Assembly: GCA_958009085.1 (NCBI GenBank)
Contig: OY253668.1
Coordinates: forward strand, 806,001 to 870,000
DNA from: Protoeuglena noctilucae
Lineage: Eukaryota
Length of the DNA stretch: 64,000 bases
Direction of reading: 5' to 3'
Shown: one piece after another, positions 395-57,103 of the stretch
Layout of the letters: each line of letters begins with the position of its first letter
Numbering within the stretch: position 1 is the first letter of the stretch
Position numbers and translations under genes: made by a program
Notes under the pieces: model-generated
What the model saw: only the letters and a program-made list of their open reading frames with translations
Told to the model about the DNA's origin: nothing
Databases searched by the model: none

Positions 395-3055
<2,661 letters not shown>

Positions 3056-3396: not shown

Positions 3397-5585
3397 CTAC
3401 TGATCCTTCTTCGCTCCCTCATCACCCAGGAAGGTCGTCGAGTCGCCCCCAAAGTACTCGTTCGGCTGCCCATTGTCAGTCGGCGTGCTCCCCAGCGTGT
3501 GCACCCCACGCCGCTCCCCCGCGCTGCGATCACAGACCAAGGCTCCATACCACGCCCGGCAACGCTTTGCAAACGCAGACTGCGGCAGGCTGGGGGCACG
3601 GCACGCACCTTCCAGCGCCAGCCTTGCTGCTCACAGGCAAGTGAGGGCCCGGGGTGGGGTCCCGGCGTCCGGCGTCTTGAGAAACATCGTCTCCGTCGTC
3701 GTGGTCACCAGTCAGCCAGTAGTACCACTCGAACGGGTCGAACCACGACAGGATGCGGGAAAGGCTGAAGGACCCACTGGCACGCCCGGCCTCGGGTCGG
3801 GAGGCGGGACCGCGGGAGGCGAAGACGGAAGGCAGCAGGCGCTGGACGCCAGCCGAGAGCGACGCCGAGCCCAGGCCGAAGGGCCCGTCTGGGGACGGGG
3901 TCAGCAGCAAGCGCGAGCGGCCGCACAGCGAGAGGTCCGACTGCGGACGCCGAGGGATGGTCGCTGTCAGGTCAAGCGCCACAGACGGGCCCTTCCTGGC
4001 ACCGAGAGAGCCAGTCCAAGTGCCAGCGCATGCCGCGTATGTGAGGCCTGGGGCAACTCGCCAGGGTGCGGTCCTTGTCCTGGAGCTGCAGCACGGCCCT
4101 CGGGTAACTCGTCTCCAGGCTGAAGCTGCCAGGCCCGTCCGTCCTACTGACTTGGATCCACGCTAGCACGTCCGCGAGGGTGGCGTCGGCATCGAACTCG
4201 CCCGTGATGGTGCCGCGGTTGGCCAAGCGCACGCTCACGATCGCGTCCGGGACAATAGAGTCCATCCCTGCATGGGCGGCCACATAACGCCTCGTCACAG
4301 CTCTAGGGTGCGTCGAACTGTTGAGCATGCCTCGTCCCTTATGCATTGCCAGCGTCACCCTGGCCGCTCGCAGCTGCCCGGTCCACGTCCACCGCCTCCT
4401 CCTCCTCGTCACTCACGACCCGGCAGACATCCCCGTCACAGACCACCCGACCCCGCTTGGGTTCCGCCGGCTTGCTGGGCCCAGGCGCGGACTCCTGAGC
4501 AGTGGTATGCTGGGATCCCAGCCCCGACCATCCTGGGGCGGCGTCCGCGGCCGGCCCGCTCTGGGCGTTGGATGCGGTGCGAGAGGTGAGCGCATCCAGC
4601 GCACCCGTGACGGTGCGCACCACCTCGGCCTTGCTGCAGGCGCCCTGCTGGTACGCCAGGACCCGTCCCTGCGGGCTGATGATGGCCAACGCCGGCACGA
4701 ACGGCGTGGGGTACAGAGCCCTGCGGCGAGGATGGAGCCGGGCCGTCTTATCAGCGCAGCCACGGGCACACAGGCAAGGCCATCCTCGTCGCTGGCCTCA
4801 CTTGAACTGCTGGGCGGCCTTGAAGTGCCCCGCCTGCGCCGCGTCCATCGAGTCGGGCAGAGCGACCACGACGGCCTGCTCCTGCAGCCTCTTGCGCAGG
4901 GGCGGCTCGTTAAGAGCGTCCGACATGGCGTACCTGTCCACACCCTCCGTGTACAGGAGGCACACGAAGGGCTTGGACTCCATCCTGGCCTTGGCCACCG
5001 CGTCCTCCACCTTGCCGCTGAAGAAGATGCGGGAATCCTCGCCGGCGCCCGCAGCCGGCGCATCACTCCAAGAGGCCCCCTTCACGGCGCAGTTCTGCGA
5101 CACGAGCCGCTCCAGCGCGCGGGGATCGGCACCCTTGACCTCGCTTCGCTGAATTCCATTCACCCAGACCTGCGCCGCGCGGTCAGAAAGCAATCCTGTC
5201 GCGGAGGAAGGCATGACAAGCGCGCACACGTTGCCGGGGCGCACGTAAATGTCCGGCTCGCCTGGAACGTGGGCACCGAGGTGATGCCGAGGTAGTTCGA
5301 GACGTAGCTGGCCCTGTCGATGTCCAGCTCAGCGAATATCGCATCGTACTGACCCGCCAAGCGCTCGAACACGGGCGCAATCCTCCGGCACGGGCCGCAC
5401 CAGGCCGCTGCTTGCAGAAAACGCGTTGAGGGGCCTCACGGCTTGCCGGAGGGGGACCGCGTCCGCGTGGGGCGACAGGGACACGCACCTGAGAACTTGA
5501 CCACCAGCGGCTTCCGCTCGCTCATCGAGCGCGTCACCAGCGGCTGCCACTCCCCGGCGTTCGTGACATGGACCACGTCCCCCAT
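3397..5585 (-). CDS. Thioredoxin (WCGPC) + UAS-like + UBX domain protein, UBXN4/PUX11-like p97 adaptor (about 7 exons)
   Basis: Spliced reading gives MGDVVHVTN...LVVKFSAAWCGPCRRIAPVF...TSVPTFQ|VWVNG. Then a UAS-like region (FFSGKVEDAVAKAR...LYPTPFVPALAIISPQG), a UBX domain (VSVRLANRGTITGEFDADATLADV...TSYPR...DRTL|SDLSLCGRSRLLL), a hydrophobic patch (ILSWFDPFEWYYWL), and a tail GVHTLG...NEYFGGDSTTFLG resembling the UBXN4/PUX11 WNGNST motif. Confidence 0.88.
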
Positions 5586-6025
5586 CCCGCCCGCGAAGAG
5601 CGATGCCGCCACCAGAGGCGAGTCACGCAGGCGAGTGAGGGGGGATGCTTAGCAAACAGACTTTTCAGGACGGAGCTCTTTCTGGCGCGCCAGAAAACAC
5701 GACCCCCTCCCACGGTCCCTGTCAAAGCCCTCTTACGCTCATATACCTTTTATGCTTCCCTGCGCGGACGGGAGCCTGCCCAGGTCATCGGACGCGGCAT
5801 CTGAGCCGTTAGCGTCGAGAATTCCCCTGTCGCTAGCTTTGGTGGCAACCAACTCTCAATCAGCTCGCTGAGATTGCATCTTGACCCGCGCCGAGCAGCG
5901 CTTCTTCGGTCCTATCTAGAGGGGGTGGAGAAGCCATGGCGTGCGCCGCGGCCTGCATCCACGCGCTGCGTACGCCACAGCCCCTTTTCCGGAGCGATCG
6001 GCATTTGCGGATCCCGGAACGATGC

Positions 6026-7391
6026 ATGGCTATCACCTCGCATGGCTCAGGGCTCCCCCGGACGCCCCTGCGCTCGCCGGTGCCCCGGGCAGGAGAGAGG
6101 GGTGCACTCGGCCCCCAAGCCCATGCATGGCGGCCCCTGCGCGCGCTATCCATCGCGCAGTCGACCACGTCGTTCCAGCTGCCGCCGCTGAGACCTCTGG
6201 ACGAGAACTACGAGGTCGGCGCGCCGCGTTGCATTGCCGGTCAACTTCCAGAAAATGCGTGCCTGGCCCCGCCTGTCCTCTCGCCGAACGCCGGTGTCGA
6301 ACACCCGTTTCTTCCTTCCGGGTTCGCAGGCGGTGCACTGCTTCACGGACTACGCCAACTGGCTCATCCCCGGGCACCTCCTGGTGGGGCGCTATCCGTA
6401 CGTGGAGCCATCGCGGTGCAAGGATCGGGCCAAGGGAGAGGACCAGCTGATGGAGCTCGTGCAGGCCGGGTGCACGACCTTCATTTCGCTGCAGGCTGAG
6501 ATCCCGGCGCAGGAGAAGCTCCCCATCCGGGGCATGGGGGTGAGGCTGGGCTGGGCGTGAGGGCTAGAAATCGTATGCCGCGCCTGTGATGTCGTCGAGC
6601 ATCTCAGCTGGCACCTGAAACGCCCGCGTCGTTCCGGAGCCGCAGGGTTTCCTGCCCTACAAGTCGACCGTGCTGCTGCAGGCGTCGGCGCACTACGGAC
6701 CGCCCCCCATGGCGGAGGTCGAGGGGCTGAGGAACAGGCGAGGCGCTCTCTGCGCCCATCGCATAGCTGCTGCGTCCCATCTATCTTACAAGCGCCCTTT
6801 GTGACTGGGGCTCCGCCTTGACCGCCGGCTTGGTTCCAAGACGGCTCCGCAAGCGCGAGTCTCGTGCCGCCACTCGGGCTGCTCGCGCAGGAACCTGGAC
6901 AAGTTCCTGCCGCCGCGGAGGAAGCCCAAGGCGTATGCGGACCCTCGGCCGGAGCTGCAGTTCCTGCACTGCCCGATCGAGGACCTGTCGGTGCCGACGG
7001 GCGAGCAGCTGCGGGACTACGTGGACAAGGTGGTGGCGAGTCTCCAAGCGGGGGAGCGCGTCTACCTGCACTGCTGGGGAGGGAGGGGCCGCGCGGGGCT
7101 GGTCGGGGCGTGCGTGCTGGCGACCATCTACGGCATCAGGTGATGCGCGTGCGTCATGCCACGCAGGGTGATGTTGGAGCACAAGCGCTCCAGATGGCAC
7201 AGGCGATGGCCGCGGCGACCGAACTGAGCCTCAACCCTTTGCCCCGCATCATTCGCAGTGCGGACGAGGCATTGGAGCGGGTGCAGCGCTCCTTCGACAC
7301 GCGTCAGGATGGGGGTCGGCGCTCCCCCGAGACGGACGAGCAGATCGCGCTCGTGAAGGCGTTTGTGAGCTCCGCTAGGGCTGCGGCCTAA
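6026..7391 (+). CDS. Protein tyrosine / dual-specificity phosphatase-like protein (CX5R), possibly plastid-targeted; 5 exons
   Basis: Motifs ANWLIPGHLLVGRYP, FLHCPIEDLSVP, active-site loop VYLHCWGGRGRAG and C-terminal RRSPETDEQIALV. Ser/Arg/Pro-rich N-terminus. An alternative in-frame ATG lies at 5936. Confidence 0.88.
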
Positions 7392-9008: not shown

Positions 9009-9072
9009 GCTGCTTGCCTGCTTGCGCTGTTGACTGTCGTGTGCTGGCCCCCATGTGTGGGGGCGCTTGTTC

Positions 9073-9208: not shown

Positions 9209-12200
9209 TCACCCCGCCCCGACCGCCACCGTCTCAGACGCCCCGAACGTGCTGTGGCCGTCGCTCTTGCCCGCCAGCGAGGCCTTGCTGCGCGGGCCGC
9301 CCTGCACCCACGCAGTGCCCAGGCGCGCCCCCAGCACCTCCGCCTCCCGCGACGCCCGCATCTCCTCCATGGCCATCGCCCCGGCCGCGCCCGGCAGCCA
9401 GTAGGCACTCCTGGGCCGGTCCGTCGCGCCCACGTCCCGTGTGCTCTTGGGCCGCGCGCTCATGGGCCGCGCCAGGTGGGCCCCCACCGATGCCTCCACC
9501 CCCGCCGGGTGCAGCAGCCGCACCAGGTCCGCAGCGTCCGGGCCCAGCAGCACCGCCAGCTCCAGCGCGCCACGCTCCGGCAGGCGCTCGTCCCACTGCG
9601 GAGGAGCAGAAGCGGGGAGGGTGTCTGCGAACCCCTTCCATGCTCCTCCAGTACTCAGAACACATAGCCCAGCCGGCGATGCTGTTGTGAACCTGTGACC
9701 AACCCCATGTTCGCATTCCATGTCATGTCTCGCGCCTCGCCTTGATGTCCCGGATGTCGAAAGTGGCCTTTTTGCCCCCGACGGGAAAGTTGTTCCCGAG
9801 GAGGCGGTAGGTGCGGATGCCGAGCTTGAGCGACCAGAAGGCCACCTTGCCCTTGGCCGTCGCCTCCAGCTCATGCTCCACCAGCAGCTTCAGTATGTCC
9901 TTGTGCTCGTCGTTCGAACACTCGAGCTTGAACTCCTCCCCCACCGTCACCACGCGGGGCTTGGGGCCCTTCTGCGGGCGCGCGGTCGCAAGGGTTGTTG
10001 TTGCTTCACTCCTGATAGAAAGCTGCATAGCCGCAGTCGGCATCACGCATGCACCACCGCCGTCCCTTCCCCTCCCTCTCACGCCCCTCTCTCACCTTCC
10101 CTTTCTTCTTCCCCTTGCCCTTCTTGGACCCCTTCCCCTTGGCCGGCTCCCCCACCAGCTCCCGCAGCTCCTCCTCCCCCCGCGCCACCTCCCCCGGCAG
10201 CTTCGCCTGCCTGTTCAGGCACGTCGTCGTCACGTGGTTGTGCAGCACCGACACCACGCGGCCGCCGTCGCGGTGCTGGGGCAGGTCCGCCAGCTTGCGC
10301 AGCTGCCGCGCCAGCACCACCGGGGCCACGCCGGAGAGGTCGTGGTCGCTGATGTCGATCTCGAATGTCCAGCTGGGCGGGAAGGCCGGCGGGAGGCCCG
10401 AGGCGCCGTCGGCGAACTCAGACAGGGTCCCCGCCATGCCCGCCAGGAGCGTGGCTACGGCGAGCGTGGCCCGCGTGCCCATGCGGGTCCCCGCCAGGCC
10501 CAGGAAGTGCACCTTCATCCGCACGGGGTCCTCCGCCCAGATCCCCGACAGCGTGCGGACGAGCGAGCACACCCCCGCGTCGCCCAGGCCGTTGTAGGAG
10601 AGGTCGAGGTGCGTGAGGGTCTGGTTGAGCGGGATGACGTTCACCAGCGGGGCGACCCCGGGGCCGCGGATGACGTTCCGCGACAGGTTGAGGGCTCTGT
10701 GGGCGAGCGGCAGGTGATCGTTGGCGACGTCAGCGATGGGGCAAGCACTGCAAGACGAGTTTGCGGAGGGTGGGCGAGAACGCATGATGCCTGGCGCGTC
10801 GACTCACTTGAGGGTGGTGTTCTCTTCGAGGAACTCCGCGAGGACCGCACAGAAGGGCTCCCCGATGCCGCAGTTGGACATCACCAGCTGCGTCAGGGGC
10901 ATGCGGAGGTCCTTCTTGGTGACCTGCCGCGTGCAGAAGCGCAGGGCGCCGAGGAGAGTGGCCGCCGCACGCGAGCCGATGCCTGGGGGCACGAGCGAGG
11001 GTGAGAGAGGATCTGGCGCAGACACGCGGGATGGGTGGCCCGGCACGCGAGCAGACCGGAATATCACGTGGCGAGCAGACCGGAATATCACGTGGCGACA
11101 ACGACCGTGCATGCACACGCAAACACTGGGGCTTGTAGTGCAACGACGAGGCGACCACGGTCGCAGACGGCCAGAGAGGGCGCTCACCGGGGTTGTCCGA
11201 GAGGTCGAGGGAGATGAGCGTGCGCACGAGGAGGCGCGTCTCGGGCAGCCGCATCTTGAGGGGCTTCACCTCCCGGTACTTGGCGAAATCGTCCTGCTCG
11301 AGCTGCGAGAGCGTCGCCTGGCGCAGGGCGGGCGTGGACGCGCGCAGGGCGTACCCGGGCAGCTCCGTGACGCCGTCCTCGGGGATGCCCTCGAAGGAGG
11401 CCATGGCGGGCTCGGCAGCCAGCGCCGAGATGCACGTGGCCACCGAGTGCCGGCGGGACGCAGACGGCACCACGTTGAGGTGGAGGCCGCCCACCACGCG
11501 CGCGGCGGCCGACAGGGGCGGGGCGGGCCACCCGCCGCGGGCGGTGCCGGCGAGGGACGCGGAGGGGCCACCCCCGGGGGAGCTCGGCCAGAAGTCGGCC
11601 GGCATGGACGCCGCCGACGCCCTTGCCGCCTCATACATGCCCCCGGCCGTCGGACGCGACCCGGCGACCATCGACCCGGCCGTCTGCCCCACGGAAATGC
11701 GGATCGTCTCGTATGGGTTGAACCTGCGGTCGTGGGGCAGCAGCAGAGCTGTCACAAATGCCGGATGCACACGCAACGCCGCCAGGTATCTTGGCTGTCG
11801 TGAGCAGGCACTAGTAGTATCGCACCGGTTGCGTGTGTTGGGCATGGCCCCTCCGAGGGGATTGATGCCCGAGAGCTTTGCCGTCCGGTCCGACTCGTAC
11901 ATGGCCCGCATGGGCGTCGCAGGGGTGGGCCCAGGGTCCAAGAAGTCCGCCGGGCGCCCGGTGACGTTCGGGGTCATGGCCTGGTGCGTGGTCCATGGCG
12001 CGCGTGCAGCCGTGCTGAAGGGGTGCGGTGGGAGCTCGTGGCCCTGCGTCCGGGACCGAAGACGAGGCTTGCAGTGACTGGGTGTATGAAGTGCAGAGCC
12101 CTAACAGGGCGTCCCTGCAGTAGCGATCACAAGGTGCGCCCTGCTGCCCCCGCTGCCCCTCACCTCCGGGTCACGGTTCTCCAGGAGGCGCGCCAGGGCG

Positions 12201-15189: not shown

Positions 15190-15924
15190 ATGGGAGTCTC
15201 AACACGCGCCATCGCTTCTCGCAGGACCGCGGGAGAGGTCTCAGCCCGCGCGGCAGCCACGGCGTCTGAGGACTCCCGCATGATCGATCCCGCCGTGCAT
15301 AACCAGAACCTGGTGCGCGCGGCGGTGGCCGTCGCTGCCGTCGCCGCGGCTGCCAAGGCCACCGAGTTCCTGCCCAGCCACCTCGTGAGCTTCGTCCACC
15401 TGGTCAGCCTCTCGACATGGCTGGGGACCACGGTCTACACGACGCTCGTCATCGGCATCGTCCTCTTCAAGCAGCTGCCGCGGCAGACCTTTGGCCGGGT
15501 CCAGAGCAAGGCAAGAAAGCAGAGCTTTGTGTGGCCGCATCAACGGTTGTGGCGACGCGTGCCGTGCCCACATCTGCTGACCAGGTCGCCCCCGCAGCTC
15601 TTCCCCATCTACTTCGGCGTCAGCGCGGCGTGCATCCTGCTCTGCCTCGGCACGTCGTTCGCCTCCGGCCACATGGCCCGCATGCCGGTCCTCCTGACTG
15701 CCCTCGTCTCCACACTGGCCAACCTCTTCCTGCTGGAGCCCGTGACGACGTCGGTCATGTACAAGATCTACGACATGGAGAACACGGACCGCAAGCAGAC
15801 CGACGAGTACAAGGCGGCGCGCAAGAAGTTCGGGGGGCTGCACGGGGCGAGCTCCCTGGTGAACCTGGTGGGCATGGTCTGCGCCATCATGCACTGCTAC
15901 GCGCTGTCGGTGGCCATGGCCTGA
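15190..15924 (+). CDS. TMEM205: TMEM205 / DUF4149 family membrane protein (GC-AG intron 15511-15597)
   Basis: HLVSLSTWLG...IGIVLFKQLPRQTFGRVQSK|LFPIYF, then NLFLLEPVTT and KFGGLHGASSLVNL. Confidence 0.9.
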   Translation: MGVSTRAIASRRTAGEVSARAAATASEDSRMIDPAVHNQNLVRAAVAVAAVAAAAKATEFLPSHLVSFVHLVSLSTWLGTTVYTTLVIGIVLFKQLPRQTFGRVQSKARKQSFVWPHQRLWRRVPCPHLLTRSPPQLFPIYFGVSAACILLCLGTSFASGHMARMPVLLTALVSTLANLFLLEPVTTSVMYKIYDMENTDRKQTDEYKAARKKFGGLHGASSLVNLVGMVCAIMHCYALSVAMA

Positions 15925-34725: not shown

Positions 34726-34747
34726 CGGATTGTGACAATTGCCGAGC

Positions 34748-42967: not shown

Positions 42968-45155
42968 ATGCTGGGTGCACGCACCACTGCGCCGGCCCAC
43001 CAAGGCGCCGGCGGGGGGCGTCCCAAAGTATGGCAGCCGCGCGGAGGGCCGATTTATCCGCGCGGCCGGCCTCTTCCGCATCTGTGCGCGTCCCATACCT
43101 TCGCTCCAATCTCTACCGAGGTGGACAGCATCCTGACGAAGCTAGAAAGCTTGCCTGCGCCGCTCTGGGGGACGTTCTGTGGCGGAGCGGCCGGCGTGTG
43201 GGATGGGCGGTACGCGGCCTTCGACGCCGTGAAGGCGGATGCGCAGCCACTGGTGAGATCGGATCGCTGGGCGTCGCATCGGCTGGTAGGTCACATCGCA
43301 ACGATGACAGCAGTCTCGCACCCGCCTGGCAGGCCTTCGCGGAGGATGGAGACAAGCGTCGCAAGGTGCTGGACCTGGCGACGCGCTGCGTCGAGTCGCG
43401 GGGAACCACTTCCACGGGCCCGCTGCTGCGGCGGATGGTGGCCAAGGCGCTGAGCCCGGAACGGTGGGCGCTTGCCTGCGCAATGGGATGCGCCTGCGCT
43501 CTGCCGTGGCTGCCCTGAGCCAAGTTGTCAAGCCGACACCTGCTGGGGACCGCAGAGTCGTCGAGGTCACCGCACCGCTCCTGTCTCTGGACCTGCTTGC
43601 CGACGAGGAGGGCGTCGCCAGCGTGATAGGGCGAAGCGAGGGCAGCCTGCAGCTGGAGGACATGGGGCCGGACGAGCCGGGACTGGTGTGGTTCGAGGTG
43701 CGCCTGCGCGATGAGAGGTGCGCCTGGGCACTACGCTCGCGGCAGCTATGTTGATGACATTGACAGGGGCCTCCCCTCGCGCAGGACGGGTCGTTCTCAC
43801 GCGGCCCCATCAGCCTGGCTCCAGAGGAGGTGGGGGAAGACCAGGCGCAGCGAGGGGCGGCAGAGGGAGGGGCAGCAAGTATCCGCAGTGCTGGCGGGGA
43901 CGATGACGACGACGAGGACGAGGCAGGTGCGACAAGATGGGCGTGCTGCATGCATGCCGGTCGAGGACAGGCCGCAGCCGAGTTTAAAGTCTTGCAATGC
44001 AGGTCCCCTCCCAGCCACAGTGCAAGCGGCGCTGGAGGCCGAGCGCCTGGCGGGGGAGGAGCCGACGAAGGTGTTTATGATGGAGCTGTGCATCTGCCAG
44101 GGGGCCAAGAGCCGCGTCAGGCGAGGCGACGCGGCACATGCGCACACCGTGGCAGGCGCCCGTCTCTGCAATTACGCCAGGGAGGCCCTGGGCCACCCCG
44201 CCAGTGCACGGCTAGCGTCCCAGCAACCGCGGCTCACTCCGTCGCAGGCTGCAGTGCCTGGTGCGGTCGTGGTGGGACGACGAGGCGGGGGAGATGGCGG
44301 TGGAGCTGCTGCGGACGTCGCTGTTCGCGGAGACGTGGACGGGGTCCGCTGCCTCGGAGGCGCCGGAGGGGAGGCCCTGGGGCGGCGCGGAGGGGACGCC
44401 CCTGTCTGCGGCGAGCCGCCTGCGCATGGACGACGCCCGAGGCGCGTGGAGCGTCTTTGAGGTCGAGGCCACGCCCACCGCCAATGCCGACGCTGCGGCC
44501 GCCGGGGTGCAGCAAGCTGCGGTGCGGGGCCAGCTGCGTTACCTTTCTGTCTCCCCCTTCTTTCCATGTCGGTCCTTTGCTTTGACTGGCGGCCTGCAGC
44601 AAGCGAGGTGATGCTTGCCTCTCCCGTGCAGTTCAGCTACAGCTCCGTGGAGACGCGGCAGCTCTGGGGCGTCGGGGACCTCTCGGACTCCGCAGGGGAC
44701 CTCGAGGGGGTCTGCTTTGTGCTCCCGGGGCCGTGCTTCCTCAGGCGAGACGCGAAGCATTTTTGGAGTTACGAAGGAAGGAGCACCGGTGCTGGGTGGC
44801 TCATTGGGCCAGTGGGGTCTCATGATTAGCAGCAGACCTCTTGGACTGACTCCCCATGCAGTTTGGAGATGGTGGGGCCCAAGGCGAGGCCCACAGGATC
44901 CGATGCGAGGCAGCCACGGGGCCTTCTGCTCAAATTCGGATGGGAGATCTCTCGTGGACAGATGCGGTGGGTGCCAGAGGCGGCTGTCGTGTCAGAGTGA
45001 CGTGCTCAGGGCGCTCTCCACGGCGTCTACACTGGCGAGCACTGCTACTCGACGCTCGCAGGACCATGGAGCGCGTGTATGGGCCAGACGGGGAGCTTGT
45101 GGAGGTGCGGGCCGGTTCATGCGTCAAGGGCTCGTGGGTCGGAGGCCGCATGTAG
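42968..45155 (+). CDS. Conserved uncharacterised protein, DUF3598-like, probably plastid-targeted; multi-exon
   Basis: LWGTFCGGAAGVWDGRYAAFD, EPGLVWFE|DGSFSRGP, MELCICQGAKSRVR|LQ and C-terminal RTMERVYGPDGELVEVR. The family call is from memory of the pattern, and the start is uncertain. Confidence 0.55.
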
Positions 45156-45361
45156 GTTTCAAGGTTCGCATTCTGCCGTGAAGGGGCTCGCGGACATTGC
45201 CGTCTATGTCCACTCTGTGCATGCATTCGGGTCTTTCCACGCCCTGACGGTTCCCATCGGCTGTCAACTCAGACGAACGGCATACATCTTCGCACATGCA
45301 AGTCCTGGCAAACAAATCCTGGCAAGCGGCAGCATCCGTCACCGGCAGCGCCCGGCCTCCC

Positions 45362-48300
45362 TCACGAGGACGCCGCGCCTGGCAGGGACGACCCATACCC
45401 TGAATCTCCGCCAACCACCGACCCGGAACTCGAGAGGGCGGCGTCACGGTTGCGGACCACCTGCGCATCAGCACGCAACAGCGACGTGAAGTCGTCAAAC
45501 ATGTCAAATGTTCCGCATCCGCAAACAGCAGTCACCGCGCCAGTGGCTGTGCGCGCCCGCACCCGCTTGAGCCGTGGGTCCGCTTCCATGGCCCCCTGCA
45601 TGGCCCGCGACGCGCCGTCCGCAGCCCGCCGGTCCGATCCCTGGGGCGACACCCTCTGCGCACCCTGGCCGTCCGGCTGCGCCGCCGCGCCCTTTCGGCT
45701 GACGGCGTCCGCCAAGGCCATCAGCAGCGACGCCACCTCGTTGGAGCCCATGAGAAGGTAGCGGGCGGAGGAGCGCTGGCGCCCGACGGTGCACGTGAAC
45801 AGCGCGGGCGGTGGCAGGGCCAGGGGGATGGTGGGCGCGGGGGCGGCCTTGGCGTGATGGCTGTGGCGGTGGCCGTCGGACGAGGCAGGGGGCGACCGCT
45901 CCCGCATGCTCGTCCGCAGACGCTCCCCCGCCTCGAACATGCGCTGCTCGGCAGCCTGGGGTCGGCCGAGCGAGGGCAGGGTCGGGCAGCTCATTGGTGA
46001 CACGCCTCATAAGCAGCCTCAGCACAGCCGCAGCTGCGCCGCGCCGCGCTGCCCCCTGCGCACCTGCTCCTTGGAACTGCTCCGGTTCTCCGCGCCCCGC
46101 AGCGAGTGGTTCGCGCGATAGGTCGGGCCCTGAAGCGACACCCGCGACATGTACGTGCGGCCCCCGCCCACGGTGGTACCCGAGGGACTCGCTTCCCCAG
46201 CGCCCGACGGACCCGGCCGAATCAACACGGGCGCGGAGTCCCGCGGTAGCCCCTCGTATTCGTTTGACGTGGACCGCAGGGCCTGCGTCGGACCGGGAGG
46301 CGTTGGCTGCGGGGGCAAGAGGGCCAGATGAGGTGCGTGGGGGTGTCCCTGTGTGGGGCAAGCGCAAGCGCGAGCTTGTGCCGGAGCAGCCAGATGCCAT
46401 ATAACACGGTCAGCATGCCCACTCCAAGCCTCCGCCCCATCCATCCACCACGTCCGGTCACCTTGGCGGTCGCTGACCCGGGCGCTCCCGAGTCCCCCTG
46501 CATGCCAGCCAGGTTGGCACTGCTGGAGTTGGCCGAGGAGCCGTAGCCCTCCGGCGACTCCTCGTGGGGGTAGAGCTCCCGGTCCAGGGCGTCGCGCTCC
46601 GAGGGGAGGGGCTCCCCCGCGGGGCGCAGGGGTGGGTCCAAGGCCGCAGGCAGGGCCGCCTGGTCGGGGCCGTCCGCGGCGCCCCCCGGCACGGTCCCGG
46701 CGTCCGCGTCGACGGCGAGGGCAATCCCCACGGGCGGCGGCGGGGTGGGGTCGAGTGGCCGGCCGAAGACGAGGGGGTTGTTCTGTCCCTCGAAGAGCGT
46801 GAAGATGTCCTCGTCGCGGCCGAGGAAGTGGCCGATGCACGCGACGAAGTCGTAGCTCAGGTCCCTCACGCCGTTCATCTCGGCCATCAGGCGCAGGACC
46901 TGCGGAGAGGGCGAGCAGAGAGCGCGTGGGTGCGGGACGGTGCTCGTGCGTGCAGCGTGTCGCGGATGCCCATAAGGTGTAGGAGCGTGCCGGAGGGCGC
47001 ACCCTCGTCGTAGCATTCGAACACGTCATGTATAAGAGGCCCCTGTCTGCTTACCTTGGCCATGGATGCGCCCTTGGAGAGCCCCACGGGGCGGACCTCG
47101 ACGCTCTTGGCGCCCTGGATGATGTCCACGGGGGCGTTGGAGATGGGGCCCGTCCAGAGGTGCTGGAGGAGGTCCCGGGCCTGGGGGAGGACACGCGGGA
47201 GTGGCTCTGAACGCGGGCCTGCCCGGGCCGCATGCCCAAGTCTGTGGTGACTATGGATGGCATGCGAACGAAACATCATGAACACGCGTCGTGAGGTGCC
47301 CCCCTCCCTGGCGCTCTGCGAGCTGCCCCTCGCCTGCAGCCGCCCGAACTCCACGTCGGCGTACTTGTAGTTCCACACCAGCGACGTCTCCCGCGCCTCC
47401 ACGAACGACCGGGGCGTGCGCTCGCAAAAGTAGTCGAAGACGAGTTGCACCGACTCCATCCAGTCGAGGTTCACCTTGTCGACCATCTTGAGCCACTCCC
47501 GGTGGGCCACGCCGCCCACCAGCCCGGGCCTGCGCGGGGAGGGCCGGTAAGGGGCGTCGCGACACGCACAGCCGGACAGACCGATACCGTCACCAAGCTG
47601 CCCTGCATTAACACGAGCACTTGCCTGACGAACACCCCGTTCTCCGCCACCAGCCACACGGGCATATCCCCGAAGACTTCCTCCAGGCGCGCCCTGCCGG
47701 ACCCGGAGAAGATGACCAGCGTGGAGCTGGGGTCCTGGGACAGGCGGCGCAGGACGCTGTAGGCGCTCGGGTGCACCTTGGTCAGCGCGCGCATCTGGTC
47801 GAAGTGCCTGCGGGGGGCGAAAGAGGGGCACGCATTGTTGCTCACATGAGATTCACTGCACCACCACCGGGGCTAGCCCACCCCGGCCACCGCGCCATGC
47901 AAACCATCGCTGCGCCTTCCGCACCGCCACCCACCTCTTGGGCTGCCGGGGCGCGTCCACGGCGCACGTGAGCGCGGCGTTGAACCCCATGACCAGGAGG
48001 TGCCGCTCGGTGCGTGCAAACATGTCGGCGGCCTCGAGGATGTGTAGCCCGGGGGGCACGTTGATGCGCCTCAGCTGGTGCTCCACGTGGGTGTCGTTGA
48101 GCTCCGATATGAACGTCTCCGCCCACGTCTGGGCCGTGTGCGTGGTGACGTGGTTGAAGTTCTGCCTGCGCGCGGGGTCAGGCGAGGCGACCCCGTCGCT
48201 CTCCTGCTGAAGACCGCAGTCAGTAAGCCGAGCAAAGGCCCCGAGGGCATCGGCCCTGCCTCCGCCCCCGCCTCACCGGTGCCGCTCCTTGCGCTCCTGG

Positions 48301-50735
48301 TCAGACATGTTGAGGGCGTAATCAATGGCGCTGGCCATGTCGTTGACGTTCCAGGGGTTGACCAGGATGGCCCCGGCTCCCAGGGACTGCGCCGCCCCAG
48401 CGAACTCAGACAGGATGAGGACGCCGGCGTGGTTGCGCTGGCACGCGACGTACTCGAAGGACACGAGGTTCATGCCGTCGCGGAGGGACGTGACGAGCGC
48501 CACGTCCGTGACGGCGTAGAGCGCCACCAGCTCGTTGAACGACTGCGGGGATGCAGACGGTGGCGGCGGTGGCGGTGCGATGGCTGGAAGAGCATCGGAG
48601 AGCGCACGAGCGGCACACAGCCTGCGTGCTAGTGCCGGATAGCACAGCGTGCATGTGCGTTATCCGCCCCATCTCACCAGGGATCGGTCGAGGTGGTGGA
48701 TGGGGACGTGCGTGAGGGTGCCGAAGCGCCCGTTGATGCGCCCCACGATCTCGTGCACCGTCGACCGCAGCTTCTGGTACTCGGGGACCTCGGTGCGCGT
48801 CGGCACGGCGATCTGCACGAGGAGAACCTTGTCCCGCCACTGCGAGCACGCGCGCGGAGGGGGGGCAGCGTCGGCCAGGACGCCACGCCTGGCGCAGTCG
48901 AGCCACACCGCCACTTGCATCCCGAGACTCTGTCCGCGCCCCGGGCGCACCTCCGGGTGCTCCTCCAGACACTTCTCGACGGCCAGGAGCTTCTGCGGGA
49001 TGCCCTTGATCATGTCCAGCCGGTCCACGCCCAGCATGACCTTGCGCCCGGCAAAACGCCGCCGCAGCTCGTCGATGTGGACGCGCACCTCCTCGGCCTC
49101 CAGCGCGTGCATGAAACGGTCCGGGTCAATGCCGATTGGGAAGGCCGACACGCGGGTCTGCGGGCAGGCAGCGTGGTGTCTCCCGCTCGTGCCACGACCC
49201 AAGCGTGCGAAGCCAGGCATCGCTGATGGGGCGACCCACGCTGAGCGGCTCCTCTCAGCCATGCTCATCAGAAAATCCCTCACCAGGATCCCGTTGTCCT
49301 CCACGCCCTCCGGCGTCCCCTCGAGGCCCAAGATGCGCGTGCACGCGCTGACAAAGTGCCGTGCATAGTCGTACGTGTGGAAGCCCACCAGGTCGGATGC
49401 CTGCGTGTGGGAAGAGACCCGAGGGACGCAGTTCACAAGCAAGACCAGGACGCCGCGCAGGCGGAACACAAACGCACGGCAGGCGCGCGCGTTCGCCGCA
49501 GGCACGGCCAGCCCCTCACCAGCACCCCGCGCAGAATCTCCTCTCGCAGGGGCAGCGTGCGGTAGATTTCACTGGACGGGAAGGGCGTGTGCAGGAACCA
49601 CCCGACCTTCATGTTTGGCTTGGCGCGCTTGAGGATGCTCGGCAGCAGCATGACGTGGTAGTCCTGGCACCACACGATGTCGCCATCCTGGTAGTGCTCC
49701 AGCACGACGTCCGCAAAGGCCTGGTTGGCCGCCTTGTACGCCTCCCACTGGTTGCCCATGGTGCGCATGGCCGACAGCTCCGTGTCCATCGACTGCGGGG
49801 CACGGACAGGCGCAGTGTCGCATCCACGCGCCACTGCTGCCCGCCAGCACGCCCGCCTGCCGCCCGCCCAGGGCCTCTGTCGCGGCGGCACCCACCAGGG
49901 GCACGTAGTGGAAGAGGTTCCACAGGACCTGGTTGCAGAAGCCGTTGTAGTACTGGTCGAAGGTGAGCGTGTCGAGGAAGACGGGGACGTAGTCGGCCTT
50001 GCCCAGGGCGCGCGTCATGGAGGCGCGCTCCCGGCGGGACTCGATGTAGATGCCGGGCCAGCCAATCCACTTGGTCTGGAAGTTGCCCACCCCGAGGAGC
50101 GCCGAGACCAGGCCGCCCGCTGAGACCTGCGGAACGAGAGCGGAAGCGTCACAGGCGCGGCGGTCAGGCGAACCTCGCCGGCTGCTGCGCGCTGTTGCGA
50201 TGGCGTCGCGACGACGTTCTGATCACCTGCAACAGCCACTCGTTGTCCTCTCCGCGCCGGACGTGCACGGGCAGGCGGTTCGCAACGATGAGCAGGCGCT
50301 GCGACTTGCTCGGCGCGCTGGGCGCGAGGTCCGGCCCCATCCCTGGCGCTCCTGCGTGCATTGCCAACTCCCCGTCCTGGTAGAGAGTGGCGCTCGACTT
50401 GGTGCGCCGGAAGCGCTCTCGCAGCAGACGCTCCACTCGCGACGTGCTCGGCATGGGCTGCGCCGAATCCGCCGCCCCCGCTGTGTTGCGCGGCGGAGTC
50501 GTCGCCACGTCACGCTCATCGCCCACGTCGATGGAGCCGCGGCGGCTGCGGAACGGAGGCAGGGCAGGGCGATCAAGAAAGCCTGCGTGTGTGCCTCGAC
50601 CCGCGCCGCCCGCCTGAAACGCGGCGCGGGGGCTCGCCTGCCCTGCGTCGGTCCGTGCGCTTGAGTGGCACCGGGCAGGCGGTGCGCATACGCGGAGAGC
50701 TCGAGGAGCGACACGGAGGTCTTCATGCCCGACAT
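45362..50735 (-). CDS. TPS1: Class I trehalose-6-phosphate synthase (GT20 + TPP-like domain), about 18 exons
   Basis: SRVERLLRER N-terminal motif, RLLIVANRLP, SAGGLVSAL, WIGWPG, QDYH, WFLHTPFPSSEIYR, LGVDRLDMIKGIPQK and SLRDGMNLVSFE. TPP part with GFNAALT, LGRDEDIF and FTCTVGR. Termini are approximate. Confidence 0.97.
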
Positions 50736-52629: not shown

Positions 52630-53480
52630 ATGGAAGGGGCGAATGCATCGGCCGGGCAAGCGCGCTCGCACCCGGGCGTGATTCTGAGCCATCTGATGTT
52701 CAAGGCGGCCGCGTTCGTGTGAGTAGGTGTTCGACATGCCCACAACGAAGTGCGTGCGTGCGGATATCCTCCACTCCCACCAGCACTCCCACCCCCGCAG
52801 CTATTACATCACCTGCACCTGGATTTTCTCAACCTCTTTCATCACCAATTTCGTGGTGTGTGTGGTCCTCCTCTCCCTGGACTTCTGGGTCGTGAAGGCG
52901 CGTATTCCGCCGCTTAGCCCCATCGCTGCTCGCGCGGGCAAGATGGCGCCCTTTCCACGGCCCCGTGTCCCCCACTGCAGAATGTCTCGGGGCGCATCCT
53001 GGTGGGCCTCCGGTGGTGGAACGAGGTGTCGGAGGACGGCAACAGCGTGTGGAGGTACGAGAGCCTGGGGGCCAACGACCGCGCCGTGAGCCCGGCAGAC
53101 TCGCGGTGAGGGCCGCCTGCGTGCGCAGGGCGCCGCCTGGGTGCTGTGCCGCGACTGCCGTCATCCGACCGTGCGGCCAAGACGGCGCCCCCAGGATGTT
53201 CTGGCAGCCTCTCTACATCACTCCTGTGGCGTGGGTGGTGGTGGGCCTGGGGTCTCTCTTCAGCATCTCCAAATGGGACTACCTCCTCATCGTCATCATC
53301 GCCATCGTCATGTCCGGCTCCAACATCGCCGGGTACTACCGATGTTCGCGGGACCAGCAGGCCAAGTTCCGCAACCTGGCATCCAACGCCATGGCCGCCG
53401 GCATGCGCAACGCCATGGGGGCTTTCTTTGGCGGCAACAACAACGCAGCGCAGGGGCAGGGGCAGGGGCAGCGGGCATAG
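52630..53480 (+). CDS. TVP23: Golgi membrane protein TVP23 / ECHIDNA homologue, 4 exons
   Basis: SHPGVILSHLMFKAAAF, LLSLDFWVVK|NVSGRILVGLRWWNE...WRYES, DSR|MFW and SNIAGYYRC. Confidence 0.96.
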
Positions 53481-53517
53481 AGCATAGGTGCCTGCCTCCC
53501 CTTTAAGAGGGCGGCGT

Positions 53518-56500
53518 TTATCGCGGCGCCGGAGCCCCGCCAGGGCCGTGGACCCAGGCGTGAATGGCCTGAGACGAGCGATTGCCCAGCCAGACCACCA
53601 GCTGAGCCAGCGGGCCCGTGGCGAGCCTCCGCTGGCTCCACGCGCTGGTGGCCGCGGCCGCGACGTGGCGCCCTGCCACGGCTATTGGGCCGGAGACAGC
53701 ACTGACCGCACGGCTCAGCCGGCCCTTGGCCCAGGCGTCCACGGGCGCCGCGAGGGACCTGCAGGAGTGCCGGAGGCAGGCCGTGGGGTAGGCACGATAA
53801 ATAAAATGCGATGCGCTGTCACCGGACTCCTGGTGTCCTCTGCGGCCCCTCACCAGGCGCCCCGGCTCGTCTCGGCCCACCCCTTTGCGGCCCAGTCGCG
53901 ACCCACAGAGAGGGACTCGAGGACGGCCGCGTGGACCTCGGGCTTGACGACCCCCGCCGCGTGCAGCACGTCGTAGGCGAGGGCGGCCAGGAGCACGTAG
54001 AGCAGACAGACGGCGATGTGGCGCAGCAGGCCGGCGAAGCTGCGGGGGCGGCGCGGCGGGCGCAGGCGTGTCCTTCGGGCCCCGGGCCAGGCCCCTGCAC
54101 CGAGGGCTGCATCGAGTCGAGTCGCCACCTCACCTGAAGGGGAGCACCACGCGCCCGCCCCGGCGACCCCTGCACCGGCCGACGATGTCGGTGCGCCGCC
54201 CGACCTGCACCACGGCGTGCCCCTCTGCCAGAATTACGAGGTTCTCGTCCCACAGCGACGTGGGGCTCCGGACCAAGCGGACGCCGTCGACGTCCGCGCG
54301 CGTCCCGCGGTCGCGCGCGTGCACGGCCGGGCCGGCGTTCCCGACGAAGGTCGAGGACGCCACCTGGGCGTACGCCTGGCTCCGCAGCGCCACCCCGGCC
54401 CCGTTGCCGCTGTACCGCCCGCCCTCCACTTGGATCGTGGTGCCCAGGCCCTCCCCCACCAGGGCGCCCCCCTGGCAGTCGGAGATGACGCAGTGCGTGG
54501 CGCGGAGGTCAGCGCCGCTCCGCACCACGGCACCGGGGCCCTTGGCTCCGGCCACCTCGGTCTTGACGAGGTCGATCATCGTCACATCGCCCGTCCCCGA
54601 CAGCGCCATCCCCTGGCACTCCGTCACCACCCAGTCCTTCAACACGGTGCCCCGCGCCTTGCAGACCGCCACGGCAGGGGCGCGGGGGCCACCGCCCTCG
54701 ACTGCGGGCGCGCAGTAAAAGGGGTGAGCCAGAAAAGGAGCCACGAGACCCGCGAAGGTGCATGCACCCCAACACTCGTCCAACCCGCCCCCTCACGCAC
54801 CCGTGACCTTCTCCAAGCGGCACCCGTCGGCGTGGATGTCGATGAGGGGCCCTGCGTGCGCTGCGCCGGCGCCGATGATCTTGCCGTTCTTCAGCAGCAC
54901 CCCGGGCTTGCTCAGTTTCAGCGTGTCGCGCGCCCCCAGGCGCACGGTCGACCAGCAGAGGTCCACCTCCGTGACGCCCTCGGTGGCTAGCGCGGCCTCG
55001 ACGTCGGCCAGGGACCCCGACTGGACCTCGCGGCTGTGCAGCAGGTCGAAGGCCACGGCGCGTCCGTCCACGGGGAGGGCCTGGGGCGGGGGCGAGGAGA
55101 GGCGGCAGCTCGGCAGGCGCCGTGGTGCGCAGGCGGTGGCGAGGGGGCCACGCAGCACATCCAGGGAGCCCGCTCGCAAGCAGGGCCCTCGCCTGACACA
55201 GCCGCTTGCGCACGGCGTGGACCACCTCGTCCCGGCGGAAACCCAGGGCCAGGAGGGCCGCCATGACGCTGTCCACGGCGGGGGGCGCGGGCCCATGGGA
55301 CGGCGAGTCGTCCGACCCGGGCAGCGGCGACAGGTAGCGTGCAAAGTCACGCAGGAGGTCCTTGGCGAGCGGGCGGGCGCCGGGTTGCCGGGCAAAACAC
55401 CGCGCCACCTGCTTGCGCAGCTCCTCGGGCACCGAGCGGGGGACGTCCGGCCTGGGAGGACGGGGGGGCTCTGCTTGGGAGGCTGCGGCAAGGGCGCTGC
55501 GGGCGCGTCGGGGCAGTCACGGGTTGGGAGGCTGGCAGGCCCCGCACGGCTCACTTCTCGGACCGGCCCCCGACGGCGTGGACGATCTGGGCGGGGCTGA
55601 AGCCCGGGAAGGGGTCTTTGCTGGTGAAGAGGGCCACGACGAGGCACCCGAACGACCACATGTCCGAGGCAGTGGAGGGCGCGCCCCCCTCGGTCATGCA
55701 CTCGGGGGGTTGGTACGCAGGGTTCCCCCACGGGAAGGTCCCGTAGCCCAGGGAGGCGAGGGCGGCGGCGAGGCCGTTGTCCGCCAGGACGGCCCTCCCG
55801 TCCGGCGCGAGGAGCACGTTGGAGGGGCGGACGTCGAGGTGCGCGACGCCGCCCTCGTGGAGCTGCGCCAGCGCCCGGAGCACGGCCGCCGCGATGCCCA
55901 GCGCTTCCGGCACGTCCACCTGCGACGGCGTTGCGGAGGGCGCAGTGACTGGGGCTCAGCCACGACCGCCACACGCAGCTGACGGAGGGGCCTGCCGCTC
56001 ACGATGTCATCCCCTTCTGCCAACAGAAGCGTGCTTTGCAGCGAGTCGTTGATGCGGTCCATGACGATGCACAGCTTGCCCTCGCTGTCCACGACGTAGC
56101 CGTAGATGCGGCAGAGGGCAGAGCAGCGCCAGGACGCGCGGACGATCTGCGAGGCCACGGAGATCGCTAGACACTCGGGCATCCGACGCATGACCCGTGC
56201 CTCCAAGCATATGCCCACGCAGGGCGCCCACGCAAGCCACCACACCTCAGCCAGGTGGTCGATGAGGGGCCCCGAGGCACCCTTGGGGACGTGGAGGCGC
56301 TTCACGACGACAGGGTGCATCAGCGAGCCCACGCGGAGCTTGGCGACCGCGATTTGCGACGCCTTGCCCTCGGCAGTCACCGAGCCCTCTGCGCGGGAGG
56401 GAGCGGGCCTCCCGTGAGCCCCGCCGGGCACCCCACCGATCTCTCCTCGCCCCCCGCCGCTGTCAGGCGTGCACGCTCACGCATCACGTCCTCTGGAGCC

Positions 56501-57103
56501 AGGGCGAGGTCGGATGCCCGGATTCCCTCCACATCCAGCACGCCCCAGTCCCGCTGGGACGGGCGCAGGGCCTGCACGATGGCCGTCTTGAGCGCCTGGT
56601 CCTCCGGCCACGCCCTCCGTTCCCCGGCAGGCGTCGTCTTCGACAGAGGTCGAATAGCAACGCTTGGTGTCGGAGCAACCGAAGCAGAAGCGGACCCGTT
56701 CGGGGAAGGGGCCCGCAGAGCGTTCTGCGCGGGCAGAGTCGGTTCGATGATGCGCTGTGTGCTCGCTAACATCGTCTGAGCCGTGCACGCGCGTCAATAT
56801 ACCACGCTTGCCTCGCGATCGCTGCCCTCGTCCTCGCTGTCGTGAAGCGGGATCGTTTGGCGGCACACCGGGCAAGTGACGGCCGTTTCGTCCTCGTTGA
56901 TCCTCTGCCGCAGACACTTCGTACACACCTGGTGCCCGCATGGCGTCTCTGCGCAGGGGGAGGCGCGAGCTGCTTGGTGAGAGCATGCAAACTGTCAAAC
57001 AAATGCTTTTCTTCGACGAGGAACGCGCGATCTCGCCCGTGAGCTGCGTGTCATCCCCATGGATCGTCTCCTGACAGCTGAGACACGTTGCGGGGCGCGC
57101 CAT
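53518..57103 (-). CDS. KEG-like RING-HC + protein kinase with UBA-like, right-handed beta-helix and TM C-terminal regions; multi-exon
   Basis: RING CLSC...ETPCGHQVCTKC...CPVCR. Kinase VVVKR, RASWRCSALCRIYG..LCIVMDR, LHEGGVAHLDVRPSNVLL..LADNGL, GNPAYQPPE and SDMWSFGC. UBA-like ALLALGFRRDEVVHAV, beta-helix repeats at 54.1-55.0 kb, and TM HIAVCLLYVLLAALAY. Confidence 0.82.

What the first reader, a model, noticed from the sequence alone, without database searches (positions are those of the whole stretch)
3941..57036. Unusually high frequency of GC-AG introns across unrelated genes
Seen in the sequence: restoring conserved protein motifs needs GC donors at 5261 (-, TFQ|VWV), 4061 (-, DRTL|SDL), 6738, 15511 (QSK|LFP), 19898 (AVK|FHG), 20600 (PPK|KET), 25610 (-), 26602 (EIQ|DVK), 29783, 47333 (-, RLQ|ARD), 47624 (-), 52898 (VVK|NVS) and 57036 (-). 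Probable further GC donors lie at 9740 (-), 29105, 38482, 41010 (-), 44121, 55192 (-) and 56811 (-). That is about 20 of roughly 140 hand-inferred introns (over 10%), against about 1% in most eukaryotes (established). The donors are mostly AG|GCGAG, AG|GCAAG or AG|GCGCG, the T-to-C mirror of the local GTGAG/GTGCG donors. Inference: relaxed +2 recognition by the spliceosome, GC mutation pressure, or both. The highly expressed tubulin gene uses only GT.
Basis: partly seen in the sequence, partly recalled or inferred. Interest (0 to 1): 0.72.

Follow-up and report, generated by a model that had tools for sequence, protein, structure and literature searches.

The report
Frequent GC-AG introns in GC-rich alga
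Roughly one intron in six in this GC-rich marine alga of the green lineage starts with GC instead of the usual GT, about ten times the plant norm, but the same trait is already known from other GC-rich algae.

Summary
All 20 claimed sites carry GC at the stated base. I could pin 44 introns by evidence that does not use the +2 base: RNA contigs, scoring of candidate junctions against homologue profiles with GA/GG decoys, and Pfam continuity. Of these, 37 are GT-AG and 7 GC-AG, or 15.9% (Wilson 7.9-29.4%). The seventh, 44745-44861, is new and RNA-supported. A blind, decoy-controlled scan called 30 GT, 14 GC, 1 GA and 2 GG donors and recovered seven more claims. Seven claims remain partly or weakly supported, and none was refuted. 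My sample is biased towards regions that hold claims: two genes taken blind gave 0 GC in 10 introns. GC donors sit in stronger contexts (xAG|GYNAG: 5 of 8 are GC, against 2 of 36 elsewhere; Fisher p=0.0009). That is the compensation expected of ordinary U2-type GC-AG introns under GC mutation pressure. Homologues place the organism in the green lineage, where 1-2% is usual. Elevated GC-AG is published for Emiliania huxleyi (56%) and pelagophytes (14-17%). Verdict: real, and a new member of a known kind.

The parts
15511..15597 (+). GC-AG intron (87 nt) in a DUF4149 gene; verified
   Evidence: The upstream exon ends at DUF4149 profile position 36 and the downstream exon starts at 37. Recovered by the blind scan.
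19898..20034 (+). GC-AG intron (137 nt, GCAAGT donor) in the ISWI chromatin-remodeller gene; verified
   Evidence: Best of 94 candidates against the 38-sequence profile: 251.9, against decoy 245.2 and GT 240.9. Best of 93 against the profile of the 82%-identical relative: 269.7, against 262.8 and 259.5. SNF2 profile continuity 83|84.
20600..20785 (+). GC-AG intron (186 nt) in the ISWI gene; verified
   Evidence: 730.8 against 726.5 and 904.8 against 899.9. The runner-up is a GT donor that needs a poor GGAG acceptor. SNF2 continuity 232|233. Recovered by the blind scan.
40923..41010 (-). GC-AG intron (88 nt) in a PfkB kinase gene; verified by RNA
   Evidence: Joint 40922->41011 in RNA contigs of X2 and X3, absent from the DNA run X8. 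PfkB profile positions 234 | 241.
44745..44861 (+).
   Evidence: Joint 44741->44859 with 3 ambiguous letters. The only GY..AG placement is 44745-44861.
47181..47333 (-). GC-AG intron (153 nt) in the trehalose-phosphate synthase/phosphatase (TPS/TPP) gene; verified
   Evidence: Best of 64 candidates against a 60-sequence profile: 206.3, against GG decoy 200.2 and best GT 191.5.
52898..52980 (+). GC-AG intron (83 nt, GCGCGT donor) in a DUF846 gene; verified by RNA
   Evidence: Joint 52895->52979 with 2 ambiguous letters resolves to GC..AG, seen in X2 and X3. DUF846 profile positions 49|50.
6738..6890 (+). Claimed GC-AG intron upstream of a dual-specificity phosphatase exon; supported
   Evidence: Blind scan hit. 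Donor score 5.6, rank 1 of 30. In-frame stop at +64; best GT alternative -2.1.
9596..9740 (-). Claimed GC-AG intron; supported
   Evidence: Blind scan hit. Donor score 5.7, rank 1 of 31. In-frame stop 15 nt after the donor and no GT alternative.
25503..25610 (-). Claimed GC-AG intron; donor supported, acceptor either 25503 or 25524 (both in frame)
   Evidence: Blind scan hit as 25524-25610. Donor score 5.5, rank 1 of 34. Two stops in the read-through.
29783..29924 (+). Claimed GC-AG intron (GCGCGT donor) upstream of PAS-domain exons; supported
   Evidence: Blind scan hit. Rank 1 of 28. Read-through coding score -14.1.
44121..44247 (+). Claimed GC-AG intron; acceptor supported by RNA, donor probable
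   Evidence: A piece of RNA contig X3 record 7 starts at 44245, which is the leftmost placement of acceptor 44247 with a CAG ambiguity. Donor score 5.6, against 4.0 for the one other CAG|GY donor, a GT at 43927. Blind scan hit.
47530..47624 (-). Claimed GC-AG intron (GCAAGT donor) in the TPS/TPP gene; probable
   Evidence: Homology does not decide: GC 202.5, GT alternative 201.0, GG decoy 202.9. Donor score 4.4, rank 1 of 38; best GT alternative 0.0. Blind scan hit.
55081..55192 (-). Claimed GC-AG intron after a UBA-like exon; supported
   Evidence: Blind scan hit. Donor score 5.6, rank 1 of 39.
3941..4061 (-). Claimed GC-AG intron inside a UBX domain; partly supported
   Evidence: The UBX match ends at the last residue of the upstream exon, profile position 67 of 82. 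Rank 1 of 29, score 4.9. Stop in the read-through; best GT alternative -2.2.
5170..5261 (-). Claimed GC-AG intron inside a thioredoxin domain; partly supported
   Evidence: The thioredoxin match reaches profile position 76-77 of 103 at the exon end. The downstream exon alone gives no hit. Rank 1 of 25, score 5.2.
26602..26794 (+). Claimed GC-AG intron; partly supported
   Evidence: Rank 1 of 28, score 5.5. Frame-consistent GCAG acceptor. No Pfam hit on either exon.
38482..38580 (+). Claimed GC-AG intron inside a PA domain; partly supported
   Evidence: PA profile positions 1-59 match the upstream exon. Rank 1 of 31, score 5.2. The acceptor is weak: GTAG, score 0.5.
56949..57036 (-). Claimed GC-AG intron splitting a RING finger; partly supported
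   Evidence: The downstream exon matches RING profile positions 15-40 from its first residue. Donor score only 3.1, with decoys at 2.9 and 2.7 nearby.
29105..29223 (+). Claimed GC donor; weak, acceptor uncertain
   Evidence: Donor score 6.0, but no downstream frame has a positive coding score.
56725..56811 (-). Claimed GC donor (GCAAGC) at 56811; weak, acceptor uncertain (56725 or 56389)
   Evidence: Donor score 3.1. The downstream frame after 56725 scores -5.4. The alternative acceptor at 56389 opens a 230-aa frame.
4669..4833 (-).
   Evidence: Blind scan hit: donor score 3.8, coding on both sides. Not otherwise tested.
62271..62383 (-).
   Evidence: Blind scan hit: donor score 5.2, flanking coding scores 12.5 and 9.1. 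Not otherwise tested.
45461..50545 (-). TPS/TPP gene, comparison set: 12 GT-AG introns
   Evidence: Nine by profile scoring, one RNA joint 45461-45562, and two from RNA contig length bookkeeping, 45956-46063 and 46307-46461.
19376..22447 (+). ISWI gene, comparison set: 5 GT-AG introns (19376-19514, 19645-19738, 20281-20398, 21944-22158, 22327-22447)
34935..36713 (-). Glycoside hydrolase family 1 (GH1) gene, chosen blind: 7 of 7 introns GT-AG
   Evidence: Profile scoring with decoys.
461..2813 (+). Beta-tubulin gene: 3 of 3 introns GT-AG (461-1161, 2083-2203, 2438-2813)
   Evidence: Frame translations and Pfam continuity. Reading the junctions also leaned on my recalled knowledge of the conserved tubulin sequence.

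Best explanation
These are ordinary U2-type (major-spliceosome) introns whose donor reads GC instead of GT. In a genome of 66-73% G+C, mutation or conversion bias keeps turning the +2 T into C. The change survives where the rest of the donor still pairs well with U1/U6, that is AG before the cut and G, A/C, G at +3 to +5. So GC donors pile up in the strongest contexts, and weaker donors must keep GT. The result is a steady share of roughly 10-25% GC-AG introns spread over unrelated genes.

Shown: the GC donors exist and are spliced, they are numerous, and they have the stronger context. Inferred: the direction of mutation and the role of U1 pairing.
For: - RNA contigs from two runs splice three GC-AG introns exactly, while the DNA run spans them unspliced.
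- Homology scoring picks GC donors over GT, GA and GG candidates at three further introns. Pfam continuity is exact at 15511.
- 7 of 44 pinned introns are GC-AG.
- The blind scan called 14 GC against 2 GG decoys (binomial p=0.002).
- Context compensation: leave-one-out donor score 4.37 against 3.15 (p=0.018). In the strong context 5 donors are GC and 3 GT; elsewhere 2 are GC and 34 GT (Fisher p=0.0009).
- GC and GT introns are alike otherwise: median length 117 against 110 nt, G+C 0.69 against 0.70.
- 0 of 60 introns have a U12-like donor, and no intron-intron similarity exceeds 19-24 nt.
- AGGCGAG occurs 36 times on both strands, against 17 for AGGGGAG and 18 for AGGTGAG.
- The same explanation, high GC, is given in print for E. 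huxleyi (PMC4028052, passages) and for pelagophytes (bioRxiv 10.1101/2024.10.30.620910, passage).
Against: - GC content alone does not predict the share. Chlamydomonas has 2.1% GC-AG (PMC2846911, Table 2; its genome GC of about 64% is recalled), and E. huxleyi at 65% GC has 56% (PMC4028052).
- My 44 introns over-sample regions that hold claims. The two genes taken blind gave 0 of 10.
- The blind scan favours strong donors: it recovered 4 of 7 verified GC donors but 11 of 33 verified GT donors. It made at least one false GC call, at 34935-35014, where homology prefers the GT six bases upstream.
- The context test rests on only 7 GC introns.
- No polymorphism or orthologue data show a T-to-C direction. 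All seven relatives' ISWI genes examined were uninterrupted.
Confidence: 0.65

Rival explanations
1. The lineage has changed its 5' splice-site recognition, for instance through a U1 or U6 snRNA variant or a change in a U1/U5 protein. C at +2 is then accepted almost as well as T, and the high share reflects the machinery rather than mutation pressure alone.
For: Genomes of similar GC differ widely in GC-AG share: Chlamydomonas 2.1% (PMC2846911), pelagophytes 14-17% (bioRxiv 10.1101/2024.10.30.620910), E. huxleyi 56% (PMC4028052). So something besides GC content matters. Two of the seven verified GC donors lie outside the strong context.
Against: GC donors are strongly enriched in the best-pairing context (Fisher p=0.0009), which a machinery indifferent to +2 would not produce. 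No snRNA could be examined.
Confidence: 0.2
2. The excess is an inference artefact. Consensus-like GC sites are common by chance in GC-rich DNA, real splicing uses nearby GT donors, and the true share is 1-2%.
For: - Chance sites exist: 3 of 380 random GC sites score 3 or more, and AGGGGAG decoys occur 17 times.
- One blind-scan GC call is false.
- 14 of the 20 claims lack direct proof.
- My first decoy scan was too noisy to decide.
Against: - Three GC-AG joints are in RNA contigs.
- Three more beat every GT candidate by 4 to 15 bits of homology.
- P(>=7 of 44) at 2.1% is 3.5e-5, and P(>=3 of 14) is 2.8e-3.
- No claimed site has a GT alternative scoring above 0.1, except at 19898, where homology rejects it.
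Confidence: 0.03
3. GC donors are kept by selection as weak, regulated donors that cause intron retention or slower splicing in lowly expressed or regulatory genes, rather than being neutral drift.
For: The genes with GC donors are regulators or modest enzymes, and tubulin has none. High intron retention accompanies GC donors in E. huxleyi (PMC4028052, passage).
Against: Contigs cannot rank expression or retention (notes). GH1, not a housekeeping gene, also has 0 of 7. The strong flanking consensus suggests selection for efficient use, not for weakness.
Confidence: 0.1

Closest known systems
GC-AG majority in the haptophyte Emiliania huxleyi (Feldmesser et al. 2014, PMC4028052; passages read)
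   Same: A GC-rich (65%) marine alga with GC donors far above 1%, a canonical AG acceptor, and GC content proposed as the cause. Gene predictors that assume GT mis-place junctions.
   Different: There 56% of 241 curated junctions are GC. Here the share is about 16% (7 of 44). The lineage differs: a haptophyte there, a green-lineage organism here by homology.
Pelagophytes Aureococcus anophagefferens (14-17%) and Pelagomonas calceolata (about 14%) (bioRxiv 10.1101/2024.10.30.620910; passage read)
   Same: A similar share of GC-AG, similar intron sizes (103-177 bp average there, median about 110 here), and attribution to high GC.
   Different: Those genomes are intron-poor, at 0.2-0.9 introns per gene. 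This window has many introns per gene, for example at least 14 in one gene. They are stramenopiles, not green lineage.
Green-lineage norm: 1.2% GC-AG on average over 121 plant and algal genomes (PMC6310983, passages read); Chlamydomonas reinhardtii 532 GC-AG against 25,053 GT-AG (PMC2846911, Table 2)
   Same: The same U2-type splicing. GTGAG/GTGCG-type donors with G at +3 are also what I recall for Chlamydomonas; this is recalled, not tested.
   Different: The share here is about ten times higher. My searches found no report of such a share in a chlorophyte (two searches were mis-set and uninformative).
Compensated GC-AG introns of mammals and plants (stronger consensus at the other donor positions; recalled from the literature of about 2000-2001, no paper opened)
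   Same: GC donors carry a stronger flanking consensus.
   Different: Those make up about 0.5-1% of introns. Here they are common.

Membership tests
U2-type (major spliceosome) GC-AG introns | Intron begins with GC and ends with AG | tested here: met
   All 7 verified cases do. 20 of 20 claimed donors have GC at the stated base.
U2-type (major spliceosome) GC-AG introns | Removed from mature RNA at exactly these borders | tested here: met
   Three of the 7 are joints in RNA contigs of two runs of one study and are absent from the DNA run. The other 4 rest on homology only.
U2-type (major spliceosome) GC-AG introns | Donor otherwise follows the organism's U2-type consensus, and more strictly than GT donors do | tested here: met
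   Leave-one-out donor score 4.37 against 3.15 (p=0.018). Strong-context enrichment, Fisher p=0.0009.
U2-type (major spliceosome) GC-AG introns | Recognised by U1 snRNA and spliced by the major spliceosome | not testable with these tools
   No snRNA gene lies in the window and no genome is held.
U12-type (minor) introns | Donor of the RTATCCTT type | tested here: not met
   0 of 60 verified or claimed introns start with [AG][TC]ATCC.
Introner-like (mobile, repeated) introns | Introns are copies of one another | tested here: not met
   All-against-all blastn of 60 introns found only three pairs, with matches of 19-24 nt.

The most novel reading that the evidence does not exclude
A member of the green lineage, where GC-AG is normally 1-2% even at about 64% GC, has independently evolved a splicing machinery that tolerates C at +2, for instance through a changed U1 snRNA 5' end or an associated protein. 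That would make three unrelated algal lineages (haptophyte, pelagophyte, green) converging on the same relaxation, and would give a tractable comparison with Chlamydomonas.
Probability: 0.15. Interest if true: 0.65.

Novelty: new member of a known kind. Interest (0 to 1): 0.42.

Why it matters
**Practical.** Gene finders that assume GT donors will misplace about one junction in six in this genome. E. huxleyi models suffered in the same way (PMC4028052). My own GT/GC-neutral gene finder also failed here, because the splice signals carry little information in GC-rich DNA.

**Evolutionary.** This would be a third algal lineage with many GC-AG introns, and one inside the green lineage. It would allow a clean test of whether GC pressure alone, or a change in 5' splice-site recognition, sets the share. 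Chlamydomonas would serve as a GC-rich, low-GC-AG control.

Tried and rejected
1. **Own gene finder.** I wrote an exon-chain dynamic program. It recovered at most 10 of 30 known introns and called GA/GG decoys freely, so I did not use its counts.
2. **First local decoy scan**. Decoys were too many (21-44), so I did not use it.
3. **Signal-only length-excess test**. GC excess was about 5-18 over controls and GG about 2-11. It is suggestive only.
4. **Whole genome.** None is held.
5. **Rfam on the window.** No family was found, so no snRNA could be inspected.
6. **Read laying.** It showed 15 of 48 joints, so the joints at 38482, 47333, 47624, 55192, 56811 and 57036 could not be seen. Run X5, from a second study, laid only 2 contigs.
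7. **Loose ends of RNA contigs** (ten shown). None matches elsewhere in the window. The one at 47324 runs 10 nt into intron 47181-47333 and then diverges. I could not explain it.
8. **Protein search with the UBX exon.** It found nothing, so 4061 and 5261 stay unproven.
9. **Pfam on 300 of 450 selected ORFs**. Coverage was sparse. The third batch (42-64 kb) was not run.
10. **Metagenome scan for ISWI relatives**. All seven loci examined of the 80 kept carry an uninterrupted ISWI frame, so orthologous donors could not be compared.
11. **Earlier notes of this scan.** There are none for this genome or its look-alikes. A word search returned only Ostreococcus notes, which do not bear on this.
12. 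**Literature searches 59 and 73** were mis-set (any 2 of 6 terms) and are uninformative.
Full report
**What the window is.**
- The 64-kb window has 66-73% G+C throughout and strong third-position GC periodicity. It is packed with intron-rich nuclear genes.
- Genes found: beta-tubulin, a thioredoxin-UBX protein, a dual-specificity phosphatase, a DUF4149 protein, a RabGAP, an ISWI chromatin remodeller, PAS-domain proteins and a glycoside hydrolase family 1 (GH1) enzyme. Also a PA-RING protein, a PfkB kinase, a trehalose-phosphate synthase/phosphatase (TPS/TPP), a DUF846 protein, a protein kinase, a RING protein and WD40 proteins.
- No whole genome is held, and no Rfam family reaches threshold in the window.
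- Marine metatranscriptome runs hold 54-57% of the sampled words of a 10-kb stretch. DNA runs of a coded organism hold 95-98%.
- The TPS/TPP exon finds nothing closer than 58% identity. Every named hit among the 120 listed is a green alga or land plant. The nearest named ISWI relatives are land plants.
- I infer a marine alga of the green lineage with no closely related annotated genome.

**The sites.** For 17 of them a frame-consistent acceptor with the local GCAG/CAG consensus lies 83-193 nt downstream.

**RNA evidence.**
- I laid RNA runs X2 and X3, a second-study run X5 and DNA run X8 on 37700-57650.
- Only 15 of 48 joints were displayed. One of these is a 22-letter repeat artefact seen only in the DNA run.
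- Resolving the ambiguous letters gives 11 GT-AG and 3 GC-AG introns among the 14 RNA joints.
- The GC-AG introns are 40923-41010(-) and 52898-52980(+), both claimed, and 44745-44861(+), which was not claimed.
- The DNA contig spans the whole stretch unspliced.
- Contig length bookkeeping adds two GT-AG introns, 45956-46063 and 46307-46461.
- An RNA contig piece starts exactly where the acceptor of the claimed 44121-44247 intron would be placed. A GT donor at 43927 could use the same acceptor.

**Homology evidence, blind to the +2 base.** For three genes I built local profiles from fetched homologues. For every exon pair I scored all frame-consistent G-N...AG junctions, keeping GA and GG donors as decoys.
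- *TPS/TPP*: in 9 junctions the best candidate is a consensus GT-AG, by 5.5-12.8 bits. At 47181-47333 the best is the claimed GC-AG (206.3, against decoy 200.2 and GT 191.5). At 47530-47624 the scores tie. One junction spans missing exons.
- *ISWI* (38-sequence profile; profile of an 82%-identical metagenome relative): 5 GT-AG and the two claimed GC-AG introns, 19898-20034 and 20600-20785.
- *GH1*, chosen because it held no claim: 7 of 7 GT-AG.
- *Tubulin*: 3 of 3 GT-AG.
- *Pfam*: coordinates are exactly continuous across 15511-15597, 19898-20034, 20600-20785 and 52898-52980.

**Frequency.**
- In all, 44 introns are pinned: 37 GT-AG and 7 GC-AG. That is 15.9% (Wilson 7.9-29.4%). P(>=7) is 3.5e-5 at 2.1%.
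- This sample is biased. I chose the RNA stretch and the TPS/TPP and ISWI genes because they held claims. The blind genes gave 0 of 10.
- As an unbiased check I scanned both strands for G-N donors that met four conditions. Each had to score 3 or more on a matrix without +2, outrank every other G-N site within 45 nt, lie at a drop in coding potential, and pair in frame with an acceptor 70-200 nt away followed by coding sequence.
- The scan gave 30 GT, 14 GC, 1 GA and 2 GG. GC against GG gives p=0.002.
Four of these were already verified and seven were otherwise unproven.
- It also gave two new candidates (4669-4833, 62271-62383) and one known false call (34935-35014).
- The scan favours strong donors: it recovered 4 of 7 verified GC donors against 11 of 33 verified GT donors. 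My rough correction gives about 19% GC-AG.
- I put the true share at 10-25%.

**The unproven claims.**
- In leave-one-out tests the true donor ranks first among about 33 G-N sites within 45 nt in 30 of 40 verified introns, and second in 9 more.
- All 14 unproven claims rank first.
- Their read-through coding scores are all negative, five have in-frame stops, and none has a GT alternative scoring above 0.1.
- 29105 and 56811 lack a convincing downstream frame.

**Mechanism.**
- GC donors have stronger flanks. AG precedes the cut in 6 of 7 GC donors, against 16 of 33 GT donors, and +4 is A in 6 of 7 against 17 of 33.
- The leave-one-out donor score is 4.37 against 3.15 (p=0.018). In the context xAG|GYNAG, 5 of 8 donors are GC, against 2 of 36 elsewhere (Fisher p=0.0009).
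- Length, composition and acceptor do not differ. The acceptor is GCAG in 36 of 44. None of 60 introns is U12-like, and the introns are not copies of each other.
- This is the signature of ordinary U2-type GC-AG introns tolerated at strongly pairing donors. The high GC pressure is the likely source of the T-to-C changes.
- Whether the machinery is also more permissive could not be tested.

**Comparison with the literature.**
- E. huxleyi has 56% GC donors among 241 curated junctions (PMC4028052, passages).
- Aureococcus has 14-17% and Pelagomonas about 14% (bioRxiv 10.1101/2024.10.30.620910, passage). All three are attributed to GC content.
- Plants and green algae average 1.2% (PMC6310983, passages). 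Chlamydomonas has 2.1% (PMC2846911, Table 2).
- Searches found no report of a high share in a chlorophyte. The supplements of these papers were not opened and may list per-species values.

**Verdict.** The finding is a new member of a known kind.

Noticed in passing
all 44 pinned introns, e.g. window 48543-48677 (-): The acceptor is unusually rigid: GCAG in 36 of 44 and CCAG in 6. Donors have G at +3 in 32 of 33 GT introns. A CTRAY branch-like motif is rare, in 7 of 44.
   Followed up: partly
L001:291-2933 (metagenome contig, GC 0.68): An ISWI relative 82% identical to the window's protein has one uninterrupted frame over profile positions 109-982, whereas the window's gene has at least 7 introns there. 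It is either a cDNA-like contig or an intron-poor close relative. Six more distant loci are also uninterrupted.
   Followed up: partly
window 44967-45562: One RNA contig carries + strand joints (44522-44631, 44745-44861, 44967-45061) and a - strand joint (45461-45562). The two convergent genes therefore seem to overlap in their 3' ends.
   Followed up: no
window 47324 (-): RNA contigs in X2 and X3 follow the exon 10 nt past the GC donor at 47333 and then run on for about 125 letters that match nothing in the window. This may be a paralogue, a relative or an alternative product.
   Followed up: partly
window 38777-39198: A backward joint 39198->38777 with 27 inserted letters appears both in an RNA run (X2) and in the DNA run (X8). 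This suggests a structural variant or local duplication in part of the population (table 5c).
   Followed up: no
window 35014-35020 (-): Tandem donors sit six bases apart: homology prefers GT at 35020 (124.0) over GC at 35014 (117.5), although the GC site has the better consensus. This is a possible alternative donor pair.
   Followed up: partly
window 34832-36784 (-): The GH1 gene's best full-length hits are only 28-42% identical. The few that carry names are bacterial or archaeal metagenome bins. It may be a divergent or laterally acquired gene that has gained at least 7 introns. Only the 'longer' length class was searched.
   Followed up: no
window 20804-22240 (+): The representative library holds a 479-aa protein 100% identical to this single long ISWI exon (P0121). 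This is an ORF call on unspliced DNA of this or an identical genome, not a spliced gene model.
   Followed up: no
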